Source: Escherichia coli
GTDB taxonomy: Bacteria > Pseudomonadota > Gammaproteobacteria > Enterobacterales > Enterobacteriaceae
DNA length: 64,000 nt
Reading direction: 5' to 3' (one strand)
Assembly (NCBI RefSeq): GCF_044647545.1
Contig: NZ_CP172818.1
The notes below the pieces were generated by a model. It did no database searches. It saw nothing but the letters and a program-made list of their open reading frames with translations, and was not told where the DNA came from. Within the stretch, counting starts at the first letter, position 1. Each line of letters begins with the position of its first letter. This document shows, in pieces, positions 3,784-59,734 of this stretch. The position numbers and the translations under genes were made by a program.

Positions 3784-4080
<297 letters not shown>

Positions 4081-4222
4081 TATTCTGCTCTGGAAGTAGA
4101 GTGTTAATTATCTTATAGAGAAACCTTAACGCTATTATATTTATTTAAATGATGAAATTAGCATAATCATTCACTAAGTAAATTTATATAGTATCTGCCC
4201 AGACACTTATTTATAGTTATTA

Positions 4223-4256
4223 AAGGCGCGTCCGACTGGTTCACCGGACGCACCTT
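4223..4256 (-). terminator. Stem-loop 3' of shoB, putative end of shoB mRNA
   Basis: About 11-bp imperfect inverted repeat GGCGCGTCCG...CGGACGCACC with 10-nt loop; only a weak U-tract follows on either strand. Confidence 0.3.
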
Positions 4257-4273
4257 AAGTACGTTTCCTTGTG

Positions 4274-4354
4274 TTATAAGAACAAAAGGAGCAGCTGTAA
4301 AACAGCAATGATGATTTTGATGACCCGTTTAATAAGGTATCGGCAATCAGTCAT
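4274..4354 (-). CDS. shoB: Type I toxin ShoB, 26-aa hydrophobic membrane peptide
   Basis: Hand translation of minus strand gives MTDCRYLIKRVIKIIIAVLQLLLLFL then stop; matches the known ShoB peptide; too short for the ORF track. Confidence 0.85.
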   Translation of the reverse strand: MTDCRYLIKRVIKIIIAVLQLLLLFL

Positions 4355-4429
4355 TCGTTTTTCCTTAAACAAGGAATGCAGCCGTTCAGATTAGCCCTTA
4401 CATCTCCCCAAAACTGAACGTGCGAGTTA

Positions 4430-4448
4430 TTGGAATCGAGTGCTGCAC
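4430..4448 (+). repeat. 19-nt direct repeat, copy 1 (TTGGAATCGAGTGCTGCAC)
   Basis: 18 of 19 identical to second copy at 4679..4697; lies in the shoB/ohsC intergenic region. Confidence 0.6.
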
Positions 4449-4678
4449 TCCACACCAGAGCTTTGACGACACCACTCGTTTCAATGGGGGAATTCAGTGG
4501 CATGGTGTAAAGCACAGCAAAATTGCCAATAACGAAACCGATTTTAATGTACTTATCAAAAAGCGGTCACGTTAATCTTTTCATCAATGTCGATTTCTTC
4601 GTAAAGGCTCGCGTTTTTTATGTCAGAGATTGCAAGTTGCTTGTACAGGTCAACTAAATTGATCCATAATTATTTCCG

Positions 4679-4697
4679 TTGGAATCGTGTGCTGCAC
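4679..4697 (+). repeat. 19-nt direct repeat, copy 2 (TTGGAATCGTGTGCTGCAC)
   Basis: 18 of 19 identical to copy at 4430..4448. Confidence 0.6.
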
Positions 4698-4717
4698 AAA
4701 ATTAAAGTTGTAAAGTG

Positions 4718-4750
4718 AAAACCCCCGTTCCTTACCAGTTCGGGGGTTTT
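4718..4750. terminator. Bidirectional stem-loop between shoB/ohsC region and acpS
   Basis: 10-bp perfect stem AAAACCCCCG / CGGGGGTTTT with 13-nt loop, T-rich flanks on both strands; 26 nt past acpS stop. Confidence 0.55.
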
Positions 4751-4775
4751 ACTTTATAAAGAGAACGGTATTTTT

Positions 4776-5156
4776 TTAACTTTCAATAATTACCGTGGCA
4801 CAAGCATAGTGGCGTTCATCTGCCAGCGTTACATGCATATTTACAACGCCGAGCTTTTCCGCCAGTTTTAATGCCTCACCCCATAGCCGTAGCCGTGGTT
4901 TGCCGAGCTCATCATTGAATACTTCAAATTGATTAAACGCCAGACCATTGCGGATCCCGGTGCCAAACGCTTTTGCCGCCGCTTCTTTCACAGCAAAACG
5001 CTTCGCCAGAAAACGCACCGGCTGGTGGTGCGTTTTCCAGATTGCCCATTCGTTATCGCTTAATACGCGGCGTGCCAGGCGCTCACCGGATCGGGCGATC
5101 ACCGATTCAATGCGAGCGATCTCCACAATATCCGTACCTAAACCTAATATTGCCAT
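4776..5156 (-). CDS. acpS: Holo-[acyl-carrier-protein] synthase
   Basis: Track ORF 126 aa beginning [13 protein letters not shown]; shares boundary base with pdxJ. Confidence 0.92.
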
Positions 5157-6638: not shown

Positions 6639-8251
<1,613 letters not shown>

Positions 8252-8450
8252 TCAGCACACGAAACAGACCTGATATACATGGTTCTGCTAACTGCTTCGC
8301 TGCAGTTTCAGTTTACCGGTATATGGGGACCAACGCTGTTTCGTGTGCCGTGGCAACCTGGAGGTGCCAACCTTAAACTTCGGGGGAATATTCTATACAC
8401 AACGACGGGGGATGTCGTTAGCCACGGGAGATTTATCTCATAAATAATTC

Positions 8451-9483: not shown

Positions 9484-11283
<1,800 letters not shown>

Positions 11284-11480
11284 AAAGTATGATTATTGTG
11301 CCTTAATGCCCGGTTAACCAGGCTTTTAGAAGTCGCTGTTCTGAGCTTAACGTCTGTATTAATAGAAACGCCGCATTCTACACTACAACATTGAGGCGAG
11401 GAAATGTTCATACCGTATGGATTGTGGTATCTGGAAACGTCCTCGCATTTGTTATGCAAAATGCAACAAAGCCAGTGAAA

Positions 11481-11960
11481 TCACTGGCTCGCGTCTTCCG
11501 AAGATGTTTCAAATCGCACAAGGCCAGGCGGCAATGCCACGCTTAAGATGATCGGTTGCCATTCAGACCGGGCAGCAAACTTTCGAGAGCAGCCACGTGC
11601 AATCAGGAATCCACCAACGCCACCGAGAATCGCACCGCATAATGCTGCAATATCTGAAGCAAAGAGTAGCTGAAATAGTGAAGCGATGAGGAATAGTCCC
11701 ACCAACGGCGACATATAAACCAGTAATGCGGAGCTAAGCAGGCTGCCTTCGGCGATTCCTAATTCTACTTTTTGCCCCGGCACTAACGGTTCTTCACAGG
11801 GTACGACAATGGTATGCGTGGTTTGCGGGCCAAGTTTATTCAACACGCGGCTACCGCAACCGGCGCGCGAAGCGCAGCTGCTGCATGAGGCTTTAACATC
11901 ACAACTAACCAGCGCCTGCCCGTTTTCCCAGGAGACGACGGTAGCCCACTCTTTGATCAT
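11481..11960 (-). CDS. rseC: Sigma-E regulatory protein RseC
   Basis: Track ORF 159 aa; last gene of the rpoE-rseABC cluster; 4-bp overlap with rseB. Confidence 0.85.
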   Translation of the reverse strand: MIKEWATVVSWENGQALVSCDVKASCSSCASRAGCGSRVLNKLGPQTTHTIVVPCEEPLVPGQKVELGIAEGSLLSSALLVYMSPLVGLFLIASLFQLLFASDIAALCGAILGGVGGFLIARGCSRKFAARSEWQPIILSVALPPGLVRFETSSEDASQ

Positions 11961-12913
11961 TGCGCTGCCCCGAACTTAATATTCTCGGCAATGCGTTTCG
12001 CCGTTTGCGGCGGCAGTTCACCGACAATGGTGATTTCGGCGTTATCACGTACGCTTGTACTGACGGTTCTGCGTCCGGTGCGCAACATCTGATCGGTGCT
12101 CGATGGCGTAGCGCGGTTAACGTTTACCGAGAAGCTGAATAATCCGTCGGAATAGAGACGTGATTCAATAGGCATGTTGTCCATCGTCGGTAGCGGACGT
12201 CGACTACTGGAAACTTCGCTAAAACCCTGTGGCAACCAGGTTGGCGTCCAGCTGAATTTAGCTTTTTCACCTACAGGAACAGAAAGCAACGGCGGCAAAT
12301 TTGCCTTCGCCAGCGTCTGCATACTGCTGCTGATATCCTGATTGACATTAAAAGCAATCACGCGAAATTGTTCCAGCGTTTCACCATCGCGATCAAGGAG
12401 ATCAACCCTCATCGGTAATTTCGATTCGGTGTCCATCCACACGATGTAGCTGTAGCGTGTACCATCTCGGGCAACCACGCGAATAACTTCGCAAAGACGA
12501 TCAGCAATACGCGTGCGCCCGACGGAGATAAAGTCGTAGTAAGGAGAAAGGCGTTTGAAATCGGTATAGATGAGCGATGGCAGAGAATCAACAATGTAAT
12601 CGCCATTAAGCGTGAACGGTTCAAGTCCCGGTTCAAAATAGCTGATCTCATTGCCGCGCTGTACCACTTCCCGGCGCGGGCCATCCATTTGCAACAATTG
12701 TGCAAGAGGACGGTTATCGAGGCGTGCATGTCGATAACGCAGAGACTCAACACCCTGTTTATTGATGCTGATGAATGACAGCTCGTAATTCAGTGACTGA
12801 CTGGCCAGGTTCATCTGCTGTAATAACGCCCCGGACGCGGGAGTGGCCGAGGCGTTAGCAGAGAATAACAGGCTACCTGTCACTAATGACATGGCAAACC
12901 AAAGTTGCTTCAT
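11957..12913 (-). CDS. rseB: Sigma-E regulatory protein RseB (periplasmic)
   Basis: Track ORF 318 aa with N-terminal signal peptide. Confidence 0.88.
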   Translation of the reverse strand: MKQLWFAMSLVTGSLLFSANASATPASGALLQQMNLASQSLNYELSFISINKQGVESLRYRHARLDNRPLAQLLQMDGPRREVVQRGNEISYFEPGLEPFTLNGDYIVDSLPSLIYTDFKRLSPYYDFISVGRTRIADRLCEVIRVVARDGTRYSYIVWMDTESKLPMRVDLLDRDGETLEQFRVIAFNVNQDISSSMQTLAKANLPPLLSVPVGEKAKFSWTPTWLPQGFSEVSSSRRPLPTMDNMPIESRLYSDGLFSFSVNVNRATPSSTDQMLRTGRRTVSTSVRDNAEITIVGELPPQTAKRIAENIKFGAAQ

Positions 12914-30047: not shown

Positions 30048-30167
30048 ATGCCTGGCAGTTCCCTACTCTCGCATGGGGAGACCCCACACTACCATCGGCG
30101 CTACGGCGTTTCACTTCTGAGTTCGGCATGGGGTCAGGTGGGACCACCGCGCTAAGGCCGCCAGGCA
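30048..30167 (-). rRNA. rrfG: 5S ribosomal RNA
   Basis: Exactly 120 nt; reverse complement begins TGCCTGGCGGC and ends CAGGCAT. Confidence 0.97.
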
Positions 30168-30259
30168 AATTCTGTTTCATCAGACCGCTTCTGCGTTCTG
30201 ATTTAATCTGTATCAGGCTGAAAATCTTCTCTCTTCCGCCAAAACATCTTCGGCGTTGT

Positions 30260-33163
<2,904 letters not shown>

Positions 33164-33356
33164 TCACAACCCGAAGATGTTTCTTTCGACTCATCATCGT
33201 GTTGCGAAAATTTGAGAGACTCACGAACAACTTTCGTTGTTCAGTGTTTCAATTTTCAGCTTGATCCAGATTTTTAAAGAGCAAATATCTCAAACATCAC
33301 CCGAAGATGAGCTTTGAGATATTAAGGCAGGTGACTTTCACTCACAAACCAGCAAG

Positions 33357-33432
33357 TGGCGTCCCCTAGGGGATTCGAACCCCTGTTACCGCCGTGAAAG
33401 GGCGGTGTCCTGGGCCTCTAGACGAAGGGGAC
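33357..33432 (-). tRNA. gltW: tRNA-Glu (anticodon UUC) in the 16S-23S spacer
   Basis: 76 nt; reverse complement reads GTCCCCTTCGTCTAGAGGCCCAGGACACCGCCCTTTCACGGCGGTAACAGGGGTTCGAATCCCCTAGGGGACGCCA. Confidence 0.97.
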
Positions 33433-33507
33433 GTGTCGCAAGACGCCTTGCTTTTCACTTTCTATCAGACAATCTGTGTGAGCACTTCAAAGTACGCTTC
33501 TTTAAGG

Positions 33508-35049
<1,542 letters not shown>

Positions 35050-35492: not shown

Positions 35493-38066
35493 TTACTGGA
35501 CGGCGACAATCCGGTCTTCATTAACTTCCAGGCGAATCACTTTACCCGGAACCAATTCACCAGACAGTATTTGCTGTGCCAGCGGGTTTTCGATCTGCTG
35601 CTGAATTGCACGTTTCAGAGGACGTGCACCATAGACCGGATCGTAACCGTTCTCGCTCAGCAGTTTCAGCGCCTCGTCAGAAATGTGGATTTCATAACCA
35701 CGTTCTTCCAGACGTTTATACAGACGTTTCAACTGAATCTGCGCAATCGACGCAATGTGCTGTTCACCCAGCGGATGGAAGACCACCACTTCATCGATAC
35801 GGTTAATGAATTCCGGACGGAAGTTATGGCTTACCACACCGAGCACCAGCTCTTTCATGTGCGCATAATCCAGTTCACCGAAGCGTTCCTGAATCAAATC
35901 GGAACCGAGGTTAGAGGTCATAATGACAACCGTATTACGGAAGTCGACCGTTCTCCCCTGCCCGTCAGTCAGACGCCCATCATCCAATACCTGCAACAGA
36001 ATGTTGAAGACATCCGGATGCGCTTTTTCCACTTCATCCAGCAGGATGACGGAATACGGACGACGACGCACCGCTTCGGTCAGGTAGCCACCTTCTTCAT
36101 AACCGACATATCCCGGAGGCGCACCAACCAGACGAGACACCGAGTGTTTCTCCATAAACTCGGACATATCGATACGGACCATCGCCTCGTCGCTATCAAA
36201 CATAAAGTTCGCCAGCGCCTTACAAAGCTCAGTTTTCCCCACACCCGTTGGGCCGAGGAACAGGAATGAACCAATCGGGCGATTTGGATCCGCCAGCCCC
36301 GCACGGCTACGACGAATAGCGTTAGATACCGCATCAACCGCTTCGTTCTGACCAATAACGCGATGGTGCAGTTCTTGCTCCATACGCAGCAGTTTTTCGC
36401 GCTCGCTTTCCATCATGCGAGAAACCGGAATCCCCGTCCAACGCGCCAGCACTTCAGCAATTTCGGCATCGGTCACTTTATTACGCAACAGACGCATAGT
36501 TTTGCCTTCGAGCTGCGTTGCGGCTTCCAGTTGCTTTTCCAGTTCCGGGATTTTGCCGTATTGCAGTTCAGACATCCGCGCCAGGTCACCCACACGGCGA
36601 GCCTGTTCAATAGCGATTTTCGCCTGTTCCAGTTCCGCTTTAATGGTCTGCGTACCAGAAAGCGATGCTTTCTCTGCTTTCCACTCTTCTTCTAACTCGG
36701 AGTACTGACGTTCTTTGTCGCTCAGTTCTTCGTTGAGCATATCCAGACGTTTTTTACTGGCTTCATCAGACTCTTTCATTAACGCCTGTTGTTCCAGTTT
36801 GAGCTGGATGATACGGCGATCGAGTCGGTCGAGTTCTTCTGGTTTTGAGTCAATCTGCATACGAATGCTGGATGCTGCCTCATCGATCAGGTCGATGGCT
36901 TTATCTGGCAGCTGGCGGTCAGCAATGTAGCGATGAGACAACGTCGCCGCTGCAACAATTGCCGGGTCAGTAATTTGCACATGGTGGTGCAGCTCGTAAC
37001 GTTCTTTCAGGCCACGTAGAATCGCAATGGTATCTTCAACAGAAGGCTCGGCAACAAACACTTTCTGGAAACGACGTTCCAGCGCAGCATCTTTTTCGAT
37101 GTACTGGCGATATTCGTCAAGCGTCGTGGCACCTACGCAGTGCAATTCACCACGCGCCAGCGCCGGTTTCAGCATGTTTCCGGCGTCCATTGCGCCATCG
37201 GCTTTACCCGCGCCGACCATGGTATGTAATTCGTCGATAAACAGGATGACGTTGCCTTCCTGTTTGGCAAGATCGTTAAGTACGCCTTTTAAACGTTCTT
37301 CAAACTCACCGCGATATTTCGCCCCAGCCACCAGCGCGCCCATATCCAGCGCCAGTACGCGGCGGCCTTTCAACCCTTCGGGCACTTCGCCGTTGATAAT
37401 ACGCTGCGCCAGACCTTCAACGATGGCAGTCTTACCGACGCCTGGTTCACCAATCAGTACCGGGTTATTTTTAGTACGACGTTGCAGCACCTGAATGGTA
37501 CGGCGAATTTCTTCATCACGACCAATCACCGGATCGAGTTTACCCTGTTCGGCTCGTTCGGTAAGGTCGATGGTATATTTTTTCAAAGCCTGACGTTGGT
37601 CTTCAGCACCTTGATCGTTCACGCTTTCACCTCCACGCATTTGTTCAATCGCTTGAGTAATGTTGGCGGTGGTCGCCCCTGCTGCTTTCAGGATGTCGGC
37701 CAGCGTGCCGCGAGACTCAAGTGCCGCCAGAACGAACAGTTCTGACGAGATAAAGTTATCACCACGTTTTTGCGCCAGCTTGTCGCAAAGATTAAGAACG
37801 CGCACCAGATCCTGTGATGGCTGGACATCACCACCAGTACCTTCAACCTGCGGTAAACGATTTAATGCCTGATTGATATCTGTGCGCAACTGGCCAGCAT
37901 TTATGCCAGCGGATGTTAATAAAGGACTAACCGAACCCCCTTCCTGATTCAGCAGGGCGCTCATTAAATGAAGTGGTTCGATGAATTGGTTGTCGTGCCC
38001 GAGTGCAAGTGATTGGGCATCGGCAAGAGCAAGCTGGAATTTATTAGTAAGACGATCCAGACGCAT
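35493..38066 (-). CDS. clpB: Chaperone ClpB (Hsp100 disaggregase, two AAA+ modules)
   Basis: Track ORF 35493..38078; ATG at 38066 with GGAGG upstream gives 857 aa starting [14 protein letters not shown]; Walker A GEPGVGKT and GPTGVGKT. Confidence 0.95.
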
Positions 38067-38105
38067 AACTCCTCCCATAACGGATCAAAGTTGCTACTGG
38101 AGATT

Positions 38106-38133
38106 AAATGAGGTCATCCCTCAATTATTCAAG
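38106..38133 (-). promoter_or_regulatory. Sigma-32 (heat-shock) type promoter for clpB
   Basis: Minus strand CTTGAA, 13-nt spacer, CCTCATTT; resembles sigma-32 consensus CTTGAAA / CCCCATNT. Confidence 0.5.
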
Positions 38134-38195
38134 GTTATTGACCAGATTAATGTGAAAAGAAAATCACGCGTACCGGATCGTCTTGATTCTTTAGG

Positions 38196-41436: not shown

Positions 41437-41491
41437 TTGACAGCGTGAAAACAGTACGGGTACTGTACTAAAGTCACTTAAGGAAACAAAC

Positions 41492-41539
41492 ATGAAACAC
41501 ACACCGTTTTTCTTCGCATTCTTTTTTACCTTCCCCTGA
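41492..41539 (+). CDS. pheL: pheA leader peptide (Phe-rich, 15 aa)
   Basis: Hand translation gives MKHTPFFFAFFFTFP then stop; seven Phe codons; absent from ORF track. Confidence 0.9.
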   Translation: MKHTPFFFAFFFTFP

Positions 41540-41585
41540 ATGGGAGGCGTTTCGTCGTGTGAAACAGAATGCGAAGACGAACAAT

Positions 41586-41615
41586 AAGGCCTCCCAAATC
41601 GGGGGGCCTTTTTTA
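41586..41615 (+). promoter_or_regulatory. pheA attenuator terminator hairpin
   Basis: Stem GGCCTCCC / GGGGGGCC (one G-U pair) followed by TTTTTTT, between pheL and pheA. Confidence 0.75.
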
Positions 41616-41637
41616 TTGATAACAAAAAGGCAACACT

Positions 41638-59371: not shown

Positions 59372-59734
59372 GGGGCTGATTCTGGATTCGACGGGATTTG
59401 CGAAACCCAAGGTGCATGCCGAGGGGCGGTTGGCCTCGTAAAAAGCCGCAAAAAATAGTCGCAAACGACGAAAACTACGCTTTAGCAGCTTAATAACCTG
59501 CTTAGAGCCCTCTCTCCCTAGCCTCCGCTCTTAGGACGGGGATCAAGAGAGGTCAAACCCAAAAGAGATCGCGTGGAAGCCCTGCCTGGGGTTGAAGCGT
59601 TAAAACTTAATCAGGCTAGTTTGTTAGTGGCGTGTCCGTCCGCAGCTGGCAAGCGAATGTAAAGACTGACTAAGCATGTAGTACCGAGGACGTAGGAATT
59701 TCGGACGCGGGTTCAACTCCCGCCAGCTCCACCA
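59372..59734 (+). ncRNA. ssrA: Transfer-messenger RNA (tmRNA)
   Basis: 363 nt from GGGGCTGATTCTGGATTCGACGGG to GGGTTCAACTCCCGCCAGCTCCACCA; internal frame GCAAACGACGAAAACTACGCTTTAGCAGCTTAA encodes tag ANDENYALAA; TATACT -10-like hexamer upstream. Confidence 0.97.

What the first reader, a model, noticed from the sequence alone, without database searches (positions are those of the whole stretch)
4274..4720. Type I toxin-antitoxin locus shoB/ohsC hidden in the yfhL-acpS intergenic region
The 26-codon ShoB toxin is read exactly on the minus strand at 4274..4354, and the roughly 700-bp intergenic region is AT-rich and structured. From established knowledge the cognate antisense RNA OhsC is transcribed divergently on the plus strand to the right of shoB, but I cannot place its ends from sequence alone. 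Nothing here appears in the ORF track.
Basis: partly seen in the sequence, partly recalled or inferred. Interest (0 to 1): 0.4.

Follow-up and report, generated by a model that had tools for sequence, protein, structure and literature searches.

The report
Known shoB/ohsC toxin-antitoxin locus

Summary
A 26-codon ORF at 4274..4354 (-) encodes ShoB (25/26 identical to K-12) in the 695-bp, AT-rich yfhL-acpS spacer of an E. coli chromosome. Rfam places OhsC at 4678..4755 (+) with 95.4 bits (threshold 50), and projecting the K-12 annotation gives 4678..4757. OhsC does not overlap shoB. Its first 20 nt pair in trans with the shoB 5' UTR at 4429..4448, 75-94 nt upstream of the AUG. Both published promoters are present, which puts the shoB mRNA at about 4222..4533. 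The locus is already known.

One addition: E. coli has two alleles of the pairing region. The window carries the minority type (about 31% of 5,426 complete genomes). The same seven positions differ from K-12 in both the target and OhsC, and six of the seven changes are identical. The predicted duplex is 19 pairs with one U.U mismatch (-34 kcal/mol, against -41 for K-12 and -21 to -23 for cross-allele pairs). All 72 metagenome contigs carrying both sites had matched alleles. Interest is low, apart from possible allele specificity.

The parts
4274..4354 (-). shoB coding sequence: a 26-aa hydrophobic toxin plus stop, the I22L variant (WP_000128777.1)
   Evidence: Translation, RefSeq annotation of a 100%-identical genome, and comparison with K-12 and other Escherichia.
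4361..4376 (-). Shine-Dalgarno AAGGAA (4366..4361) held in a small hairpin with UUCCUU (4376..4371)
   Evidence: MFE and consensus folds. P(unpaired) of the SD is 0.08-0.11. PMC11264685 Table 2 reports the AAGGAA RBS as 100% conserved.
4223..4256 (-). shoB 3' stem-loop of 13-14 pairs, the predicted terminator and 3' end of the mRNA
   Evidence: Folds. Two of its pairs show double-sided changes across Escherichia (4252:4227 and 4246:4233). The simple terminator scan did not flag it because the U tract is weak.
4222..4533 (-). Inferred full-length shoB mRNA of about 312 nt. The processed, active form is inferred to start near 4492.
   Evidence: Promoter position and terminator. The sizes agree with the published ~320-nt and ~280-nt species, with the second 5' end 41 nt downstream (PMC5668327, PMC5066626). 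The ends were not measured in this strain.
4429..4448 (-). OhsC target in the shoB 5' UTR, 75-94 nt upstream of the AUG. The allele-specific block is 4433..4440.
   Evidence: RNAduplex gives 20 positions with 19 pairs (including one G.U) and one U.U mismatch at 4439/4688, -34.2 kcal/mol.
4541..4570 (-). shoB promoter: -35 GTGACC (4570..4565), 18-bp spacer, -10 TAAAAT (4546..4541)
   Evidence: Consensus scan. The hexamers are identical to those listed for shoB in PMC11264685 Table 2.
4641..4670 (+). ohsC promoter: -35 TTGTAC (4641..4646, the 33% variant) and -10 CATAAT (4665..4670). It overlaps the K-12 CpxR site CB2, which is not conserved here.
   Evidence: Consensus scan, PMC11264685 Table 2, and the alignment with K-12.
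4678..4757 (+). OhsC antitoxin sRNA (80 nt): pairing stretch 4678..4697, linker, and terminator hairpin 4710..4757
   Evidence: Rfam RF02495 at 95.4 bits against a gathering score of 50, over 4678..4755. The K-12 ohsC annotation (b4608, 79 nt) projects through the alignment. Fold.

Best explanation
The region is the chromosomal shoB/ohsC type I toxin-antitoxin locus of E. coli. shoB (minus strand) is transcribed from a sigma-70 promoter at 4570..4541 into an mRNA of about 312 nt. Its long 5' UTR folds so that the Shine-Dalgarno sequence is locked in a small hairpin and the mRNA's own 5' end pairs with the flanks of the OhsC target. According to published K-12 work, this full-length form is not translated, and a form shortened by 41 nt is. 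OhsC (plus strand, 4678..4757) is transcribed divergently from a promoter about 144 bp away. [quoted passage not shown] This most likely blocks ribosome loading (a standby site or a structural switch, as in tisB/IstR-1, zorO/OrzO and dinQ/AgrB) and creates an RNase III substrate, keeping the membrane-depolarising 26-aa peptide unmade. Shown here: the sequence identity of both genes, the promoters, the complementarity, the predicted folds and the allele covariation. Taken from the literature: toxicity, rescue by OhsC, 5' processing, RNase III cleavage and CpxR control. Inferred only: the standby or switch step, and that the window's allele behaves like K-12's.
For: The ShoB ORF is exact and is annotated as ShoB in identical genomes, between yfhL and acpS. 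OhsC scores 95.4 bits against RF02495 (threshold 50) over the full model length, and it aligns to K-12 ohsC b4608. The consensus scan returns exactly the two published promoters (PMC11264685 Table 2). The OhsC 5' end and the shoB 5' UTR form a 20-position duplex at -34.2 kcal/mol. The shoB mRNA fold has z = -5.3, with the SD and AUG paired. The consensus fold of 14 Escherichia sequences keeps the helix between the 5' end and the target flanks, with one compensatory pair. The same seven positions differ between the two E. coli alleles in both partners, and alleles were matched on all 72 metagenome contigs that carried both sites. From the literature: OhsC abolishes ShoB toxicity; a ~320-nt inactive and a ~280-nt active mRNA exist (PMC5668327, PMC5066626); 19 nt of complementarity at the OhsC 5' end is reported (PMC3919570); RNase III cleavage occurs in the duplex region in vivo (PMC6212723); CpxR binds and regulates both promoters (PMC9600279).
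Against: There are no expression data for this strain. The window's duplex has an internal U.U mismatch (10(1)9 pairing). In the sister zorO/OrzO system a 9(1)8 variant repressed less well (PMC3919570), so repression here may be weaker than in K-12. Thermodynamic folding did not reproduce a clear on/off switch after removing 41 nt, because the SD stays paired in every form. The activating step therefore remains unexplained in silico. The K-12 CpxR site CB2 is not conserved in this allele (PMC11264685). The primary paper (Fozo 2008) was not available to read, so transcript ends are taken second-hand.
Confidence: 0.93

Rival explanations
1. The plus-strand element at 4710..4757 is only a bidirectional terminator for the convergent pdxJ-acpS operon, and no functional antitoxin RNA is made in this strain.
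For: The hairpin is nearly palindromic and also matches the OhsC model on the minus strand (25 bits). It begins 19 nt downstream of the acpS stop at 4776. RefSeq does not annotate ohsC in any of 60 sampled non-reference genomes.
Against: The Rfam match covers the whole 77-position model, including the 5' pairing stretch. A promoter with the published hexamers sits at the right distance, with the -10 ending 7 nt before 4678. The 5' stretch co-varies with its target in shoB at seven positions, which a plain terminator would not do. The two roles are not mutually exclusive.
Confidence: 0.04
2. ShoB translation is controlled as in hok/mok. An upstream reading frame (4503..4351, minus strand) ends in TGA overlapping the shoB ATG (ATGA). 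Its translation would open the SD hairpin and couple into shoB, and OhsC would act by blocking ribosomes travelling through that frame rather than a standby site.
For: The frame is open from the 5' end of the mRNA to the ATGA overlap in all 14 Escherichia sequences, and the OhsC target lies inside it. The SD of shoB is sequestered in every predicted form, so some unfolding mechanism is needed.
Against: There is no Shine-Dalgarno sequence ahead of its AUG (sequence ACACCAUG). The AUG is lost in strain E69 (ATA). Substitutions are spread evenly over codon positions (8/6/10) and are mostly non-synonymous, so there is no coding signature. The AUG lies upstream of the inferred processed 5' end (~4492), so it is absent from the translationally active form. 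The region is so conserved at the nucleotide level that an open frame is expected by chance.
Confidence: 0.05
3. The locus is a decayed remnant in this strain. The U.U mismatch, the I22L change and the altered ohsC -35/CpxR site would mean that toxin or antitoxin no longer works.
For: The duplex is 7 kcal/mol weaker than in K-12. The K-12 CB2 site is absent. Interrupted loci do exist, such as the IS1 insertion in EC96.
Against: The same allele, including the mismatch, is found in about 1,690 of 5,426 complete genomes and on 30 of 72 metagenome contigs, with the ORF, RBS and both promoters intact. I22L is a conservative change in a hydrophobic helix. The 19 discontinuous pairs exceed the 17 needed in the zorO/OrzO system (PMC3919570).
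Confidence: 0.05

Closest known systems
shoB/ohsC (ryfB/ryfC) of E. coli K-12 MG1655 (b4687/b4608)
   Same: It sits in the same genomic slot (yfhL-acpS), with the same orientation, the same promoter hexamers for shoB, the same -10 for ohsC, the same RBS and terminators, and a 25/26 identical peptide. OhsC is 95.4 bits to RF02495. The 5' end of OhsC is complementary to the 5' UTR about 75-94 nt upstream of the AUG.
   Different: Seven of the 20 pairing positions differ in both partners (window GGAATCG[A/T]G, K-12 AGGGTGCAT). The window duplex has one U.U mismatch (-34.2 against -41.4 kcal/mol). The ohsC -35 is TTGTAC rather than TTGTAA. The promoter spacer is 20% divergent and lacks the K-12 CB2 sequence. 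ShoB carries I22L, and OhsC has a 1-nt insertion.
tisB/istR-1, zorO/orzO and dinQ/agrB (divergent, trans-pairing type I systems of E. coli)
   Same: All have a divergently transcribed short sRNA whose 5' end pairs with 18-21 nt of a long toxin 5' UTR far upstream of a sequestered RBS. In each, the full-length mRNA is inert and a 5'-processed form is active, and the duplex is cut by RNase III (PMC4147584, PMC5668327, PMC5066626, PMC6212723).
   Different: There is no sequence similarity to these systems. shoB has no LexA control (CpxR is reported instead, PMC9600279). A standby site or a dinQ-like four-element switch has not been demonstrated for shoB, and my folds do not settle the question.
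zorO/orzO versus zorP/orzP 'V1' discrimination, and cognate Ibs/Sib pairs
   Same: A few nucleotides in the sRNA 5' pairing stretch and the matching mRNA site determine which antitoxin represses which toxin (PMC3919570, PMC2943612). The two shoB/ohsC alleles differ in the same kind of short block, and cross-allele duplexes are predicted to be 11-20 kcal/mol weaker than cognate ones.
   Different: In zor/orz and ibs/sib the variants are paralogues within one genome. Here they are alternative alleles of a single-copy locus in different strains, and discrimination has not been tested.

Membership tests
ShoB/OhsC type I toxin-antitoxin locus | 26-aa hydrophobic ShoB ORF | tested here: met
   Translation. 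It is 25/26 identical to K-12 ShoB, and RefSeq names it ShoB in an identical genome. Pfam and NCBIfam have no HMM for it, so membership rests on direct similarity.
ShoB/OhsC type I toxin-antitoxin locus | OhsC sRNA matching the curated family model | tested here: met
   RF02495 scores 95.4 bits against a gathering score of 50, covering model positions 1-77 of 77, at 4678..4755 (+).
ShoB/OhsC type I toxin-antitoxin locus | Divergent, non-overlapping genes in the yfhL-acpS spacer | tested here: met
   Annotation of the identical genome and of K-12. The inferred transcription starts are about 4533 (-) and 4678 (+), roughly 144 bp apart.
ShoB/OhsC type I toxin-antitoxin locus | About 19 nt of complementarity between the OhsC 5' end and the shoB 5' UTR | tested here: met
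   There are 20 positions, of which 18 are Watson-Crick pairs, one is a G.U pair and one is a U.U mismatch; -34.2 kcal/mol. K-12 has 19 Watson-Crick pairs plus one G.U.
ShoB/OhsC type I toxin-antitoxin locus | Promoters for both genes | tested here: met
   GTGACC-18-TAAAAT on the minus strand and TTGTAC-18-CATAAT on the plus strand, identical to PMC11264685 Table 2. This is a consensus match, not a measurement of activity.
ShoB/OhsC type I toxin-antitoxin locus | Both RNAs are expressed; full-length (~320 nt) and processed (~280 nt) shoB mRNAs exist | not testable with these tools
   Known for K-12 only (PMC5668327, PMC5066626). The predicted lengths here, 312 and 271 nt, are consistent.
ShoB/OhsC type I toxin-antitoxin locus | ShoB overproduction is toxic and OhsC rescues | not testable with these tools
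   Published for the K-12 allele (Fozo 2008, via PMC5668327 and PMC8309996). It has not been tested for the window's allele pair.
Divergent trans-pairing type I systems (tisB/istR-1 class) | The antitoxin site lies far upstream of a structurally sequestered RBS | tested here: met
   The target is 75-94 nt upstream of the AUG. P(unpaired) is 0.08-0.11 for the SD and 0.01 for the AUG.
Divergent trans-pairing type I systems (tisB/istR-1 class) | 5' processing exposes a standby or target site and activates translation | tested here: inconclusive
   In the full-length fold the mRNA 5' end pairs with the target flanks. Removing 41 nt raises target accessibility only from 0.16 to 0.34 and leaves the SD paired.
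hok/mok-type translational coupling | A translated upstream frame overlaps the toxin start and shows coding constraint | tested here: not met
   The frame is open in 14/14 sequences and ends in ATGA. However, it has no SD, its AUG is lost in E69, and substitutions fall evenly over codon positions and are mostly non-synonymous.

The most novel reading that the evidence does not exclude
E. coli maintains two mutually non-cross-reacting 'specificity alleles' of a single-copy chromosomal type I toxin-antitoxin. The derived allele (this window, about 31% of genomes, including the O157:H7 and ST648 lineages) changed the same seven positions in the shoB 5' UTR target and in the OhsC 5' end, and it keeps a fixed U.U mismatch. 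A recombinant carrying one partner of each allele would lose 11-20 kcal/mol of pairing and could fail to repress the toxin. Such a built-in incompatibility would explain why no mixed combinations were seen. The matched change may have arisen by gene conversion between the two 20-nt direct repeats.
Probability: 0.35. Interest if true: 0.45.

Novelty: already known. Interest (0 to 1): 0.17.

Why it matters
The finding itself matters little, because shoB/ohsC has been described since 2005-2008 and surveyed across E. coli in 2024. It has some practical value: automated RefSeq annotation names shoB but omitted ohsC in all 60 sampled genomes, so a reader relying on the gene track would miss the antitoxin. 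The allele analysis addresses a point the 2024 survey (PMC11264685) left open, namely whether pairing potential survives the 'large variation' in the shoB-ohsC pairing regions. In this sample it does, through concerted change at both sites. This is natural compensatory evidence for the in-trans pairing model, and it supplies a ready-made pair of variants for testing antitoxin specificity.

Tried and rejected
Pfam and NCBIfam scans of the 26-aa peptide returned nothing, because no HMM for ShoB exists in these libraries.

The primary paper (Fozo 2008, PMC2597788) is not held. Transcript sizes and the 41-nt processing distance therefore come from papers that cite it.

The simple terminator scan found neither real terminator, only a 5-pair hairpin inside the shoB CDS at 4294..4306. 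I treated that hairpin as chance, since 0.8 are expected from shuffles.

I tested the upstream ORF as a possible mok-like leader and rejected it.

I looked for a thermodynamic switch on removing 41 nt, or on blocking the target. The SD hairpin persisted in every condition, so I do not claim a specific switch.

The E. albertii and E. whittamii loci end before ohsC. Cross-species covariation between target and OhsC could therefore only be checked in the Escherichia clade genomes.

A literature search for 'OhsC' plus 'compensatory' returned only hippocampal slice-culture papers.

The supplement of PMC11264685 that is held as text has no pairing analysis for shoB-ohsC.

The CpxR boxes CB1 and CB2 could not be placed precisely, because their sequences are given only in figures.

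Full report
**What is in the sequence.** On the minus strand, 4354..4274 reads ATG...TAA and translates to MTDCRYLIKRVIKIIIAVLQLLLLFL*. Small ORFs are frequent here: 48 ORFs of at least 20 aa overlap a 3-kb stretch. The ORF alone therefore proves nothing. Its meaning comes from homology. The 751 bp around it match 5,425 of 5,426 complete E. coli genomes, always on the chromosome. In a 100%-identical genome (FDAARGOS_497), RefSeq annotates exactly this ORF as 'type I toxin-antitoxin system toxin ShoB' (WP_000128777.1), between yfhL (a 4Fe-4S ferredoxin) and acpS. The peptide differs from K-12 ShoB by I22L only. Other Escherichia species and clades carry conservative V/A/I and I/V changes at positions 11, 14 and 15. 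The spacer between the yfhL stop (4080) and the acpS stop (4776) is 695 bp. Its GC content is 0.33-0.44, against about 0.5-0.58 in the flanking genes.

**Where OhsC is.** A scan against Rfam gives a full-length match to RF02495 (ohsC_RNA) at 4678..4755 on the plus strand, 95.4 bits against a gathering score of 50. K-12 annotates ohsC (b4608) as a 79-nt ncRNA. Through the pairwise alignment this projects onto 4678..4757, with a 1-nt insertion in the window. A simple sigma-70 scan of 4050..4800 returns three sites, two of which are the promoters published for this locus. One is GTGACC-18-TAAAAT on the minus strand (4570..4541) for shoB. The other is the CATAAT -10 at 4665..4670, preceded by TTGTAC at 4641..4646, on the plus strand for ohsC (hexamers as in Table 2 of PMC11264685). 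The ohsC -10 ends 7 nt before G4678. The shoB -10 places its start at about 4533. A 13-14-pair stem-loop at 4256..4223 closes the shoB transcript. The inferred mRNA is thus about 312 nt, matching the published ~320 nt. The published second 5' end, 41 nt downstream, would fall near 4492 and give about 271 nt, against the published ~280 nt (PMC5668327, PMC5066626). These ends are inferred, not measured.

**How the two RNAs relate.** The genes do not overlap; their starts are about 144 bp apart. Instead, the first 20 nt of OhsC (4678..4697, GTTGGAATCGTGTGCTGCAC) repeat, in direct orientation, the plus-strand sequence at 4429..4448 (ATTGGAATCGAGTGCTGCAC). OhsC is therefore complementary to the minus-strand shoB 5' UTR, 75-94 nt upstream of the AUG. 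RNAduplex predicts 19 pairs out of 20 positions (one of them G.U) with a single U.U mismatch (OhsC U11 at 4688 opposite the mRNA U at 4439), at -34.2 kcal/mol. This is the arrangement described for shoB-ohsC in the literature: 19 nt of complementarity between the OhsC 5' end and the shoB 5' UTR, in the class of divergent, trans-pairing type I systems (PMC3919570, PMC4147584).

**Predicted structure and likely mechanism.** The full-length shoB mRNA folds far better than shuffled controls (-111.2 against -81.5 +/- 5.7 kcal/mol, z = -5.3). The Shine-Dalgarno AAGGAA pairs with UUCCUU ten bases upstream, and the AUG is paired as well. P(unpaired) is 0.08-0.11 for the SD and 0.01 for the AUG. In the full-length form, the mRNA's own 5' end (4533..4526 and 4519..4503) pairs with the two conserved flanks of the OhsC target. 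The consensus fold of 14 Escherichia sequences keeps this helix, with one compensatory pair (4526:4433 as G-C, A-U or G-U). The OhsC 5' end is mostly single-stranded (P(unpaired) 0.83 for nt 1-9), ahead of a strong terminator hairpin. Several facts come from the literature. OhsC abolishes ShoB toxicity. Only the 5'-shortened mRNA supports translation of a reporter (PMC5668327, PMC5066626). ShoB depolarises the membrane within minutes (PMC8309996). RNase III cuts within the shoB/OhsC duplex region in vivo (PMC6212723). CpxR binds the shared promoter region and changes the levels of both RNAs (PMC9600279). The best-supported mechanism is therefore a self-inhibited primary transcript that is activated by 5' processing. 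OhsC then holds it in check by binding upstream of the RBS, which blocks ribosome loading and triggers cleavage. The loading step (standby site or dinQ-like switch) is inferred by analogy. My folds did not reproduce a clean switch: removing 41 nt raised target accessibility only from 0.16 to 0.34 and left the SD paired.

**What was not expected: two matched alleles.** Against 5,426 complete genomes, the 361 bp from the target to the end of OhsC show a bimodal identity distribution: at least 95% in 1,735 genomes, 80-90% in 3,671, and 90-95% in only 19. Compared with K-12, divergence is concentrated in three places. It is 35% in the 20-nt target, 35% in the 20-nt OhsC 5' end and 20% in the promoter spacer (4520..4677). 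It is only 1.3-1.4% in the rest of the 5' UTR and 1.8-3.1% in the neighbouring genes. The same seven positions of the pairing stretch (5, 6, 7, 8, 9, 11 and 12) differ in both partners. Six of the seven changes are identical. Position 11 is C in both copies in K-12, but A in the target and T in OhsC in the window, which produces the U.U mismatch.

**Allele counts and linkage.** Word-exact queries find the window-type target in 1,694 genomes and the window-type OhsC 5' end in 1,692. The K-12-type target is found in 3,694. K-12-type OhsC is found in 3,085, plus 506 genomes with an A-to-G variant that gives a G.U pair. On 80 metagenome contigs, all 72 that carry both sites have matched alleles, 30 window-type and 42 K-12-type. 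Linkage over 250 bp is expected for any two nearby polymorphisms, so it is not the argument. The argument is that an island of seven changes in an otherwise near-identical 5' UTR mirrors the changes in the antitoxin. Predicted cross-allele duplexes are much weaker (-21.5 and -23.0 kcal/mol) than cognate ones (-34.2 and -41.4). Outgroups (E. albertii, E. whittamii and the Escherichia clades) carry K-12-like targets, so the window's allele is the derived one.

[quoted passage not shown] Its 66.8/33.1% split of the ohsC -35 hexamer is close to the frequencies of the two haplotypes found here. In the sister zorO/OrzO system, 17 discontinuous pairs sufficed but a 9(1)8 variant was attenuated (PMC3919570). 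The window's 10(1)9 duplex should therefore work, perhaps less tightly than K-12's. That is inference.

**Alternatives considered.** (a) The OhsC hairpin might be only a bidirectional terminator for acpS. It is near-palindromic and matches the model weakly on the minus strand. It probably does serve acpS as well, but the promoter, the full-length Rfam match and the covarying 5' end argue for a real sRNA. (b) There might be hok/mok-type coupling through an upstream frame (4503..4351) that ends in ATGA over the shoB start. The frame is open in 14/14 sequences. However, it has no SD, it loses its AUG in one lineage, it shows no coding signature, and its AUG is absent from the active processed form. 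(c) The locus might be a decayed remnant. The allele's frequency and its intact signals argue against this.

**Verdict.** The finding is a correct identification of a known locus, with coordinates that needed widening. The full unit is about 4222..4757, OhsC is 4678..4757, and the pairing site is 4429..4448. Novelty: already known. Interest is low. The matched-allele observation is a modest, testable addition.

Noticed in passing
window 4433-4440 and 4682-4689: There are two alleles of the shoB/ohsC pairing region in E. coli. The same seven positions differ in the toxin 5' UTR target and in the OhsC 5' end, and six of the changes are identical. The window type occurs in about 31% of complete genomes and keeps a fixed U.U mismatch. 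All 72 metagenome contigs with both sites had matched alleles, and cross-allele duplexes are predicted to be 11-20 kcal/mol weaker.
   Followed up: yes
window 4678-4757: RefSeq/PGAP annotation names shoB but lists no feature over ohsC in any of the 60 sampled genomes, although an Rfam model exists and scores 95 bits here. This is an annotation gap rather than a biological finding.
   Followed up: partly
window 4351-4503 (- strand): An upstream reading frame in the shoB 5' UTR contains the OhsC target and ends in TGA overlapping the shoB ATG (ATGA). It is open in all 14 Escherichia sequences but has no SD, no coding signature, and loses its AUG in strain E69.
   Followed up: yes
L015 (NZ_CP060748.1, strain EC96) 763-1570: An IS1B element replaces shoB and most of the spacer. 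Only the last ~70 nt of ohsC remain next to acpS, so this is an example of an interrupted locus.
   Followed up: partly
window 4710-4776: The OhsC terminator hairpin is nearly palindromic and starts 19 nt downstream of the convergent acpS stop codon. It probably terminates the pdxJ-acpS operon as well as ohsC.
   Followed up: partly
window 4520-4677: The spacer between the two promoters is 20% divergent from K-12 and carries TTGTAC instead of TTGTAA at the ohsC -35. The CpxR site CB2 defined in K-12 is therefore not conserved in this allele, and CpxR control may differ between the two haplotypes.
   Followed up: no
window 4081-4221: The yfhL-shoB spacer is the most AT-rich part of the region (GC 0.33) and is 7.8% divergent from K-12. 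About 77 bp of it are deleted in Escherichia sp. MOD1-EC7003 (L008). No function is evident.
   Followed up: no
L014 (FDAARGOS_944) and L013 (F5505-C1), pairing site and OhsC terminator: Two rare single changes were seen. FDAARGOS_944 has a C-to-T change in the target that creates an A.C mismatch (duplex -34.9 kcal/mol). F5505-C1 has a 1-nt deletion in the G run of the OhsC terminator stem.
   Followed up: no
window 8167-8381, 11165-11996, 30050-35049, 38047-38185, 41491-41616, 59372-59734: Other Rfam matches above the gathering threshold in the window are rncO, AsrC (antisense of rseC), an rRNA operon with a tRNA and StyR-44, RyfD, the Phe leader and tmRNA. All are as expected for this part of the E. 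coli chromosome.
   Followed up: no
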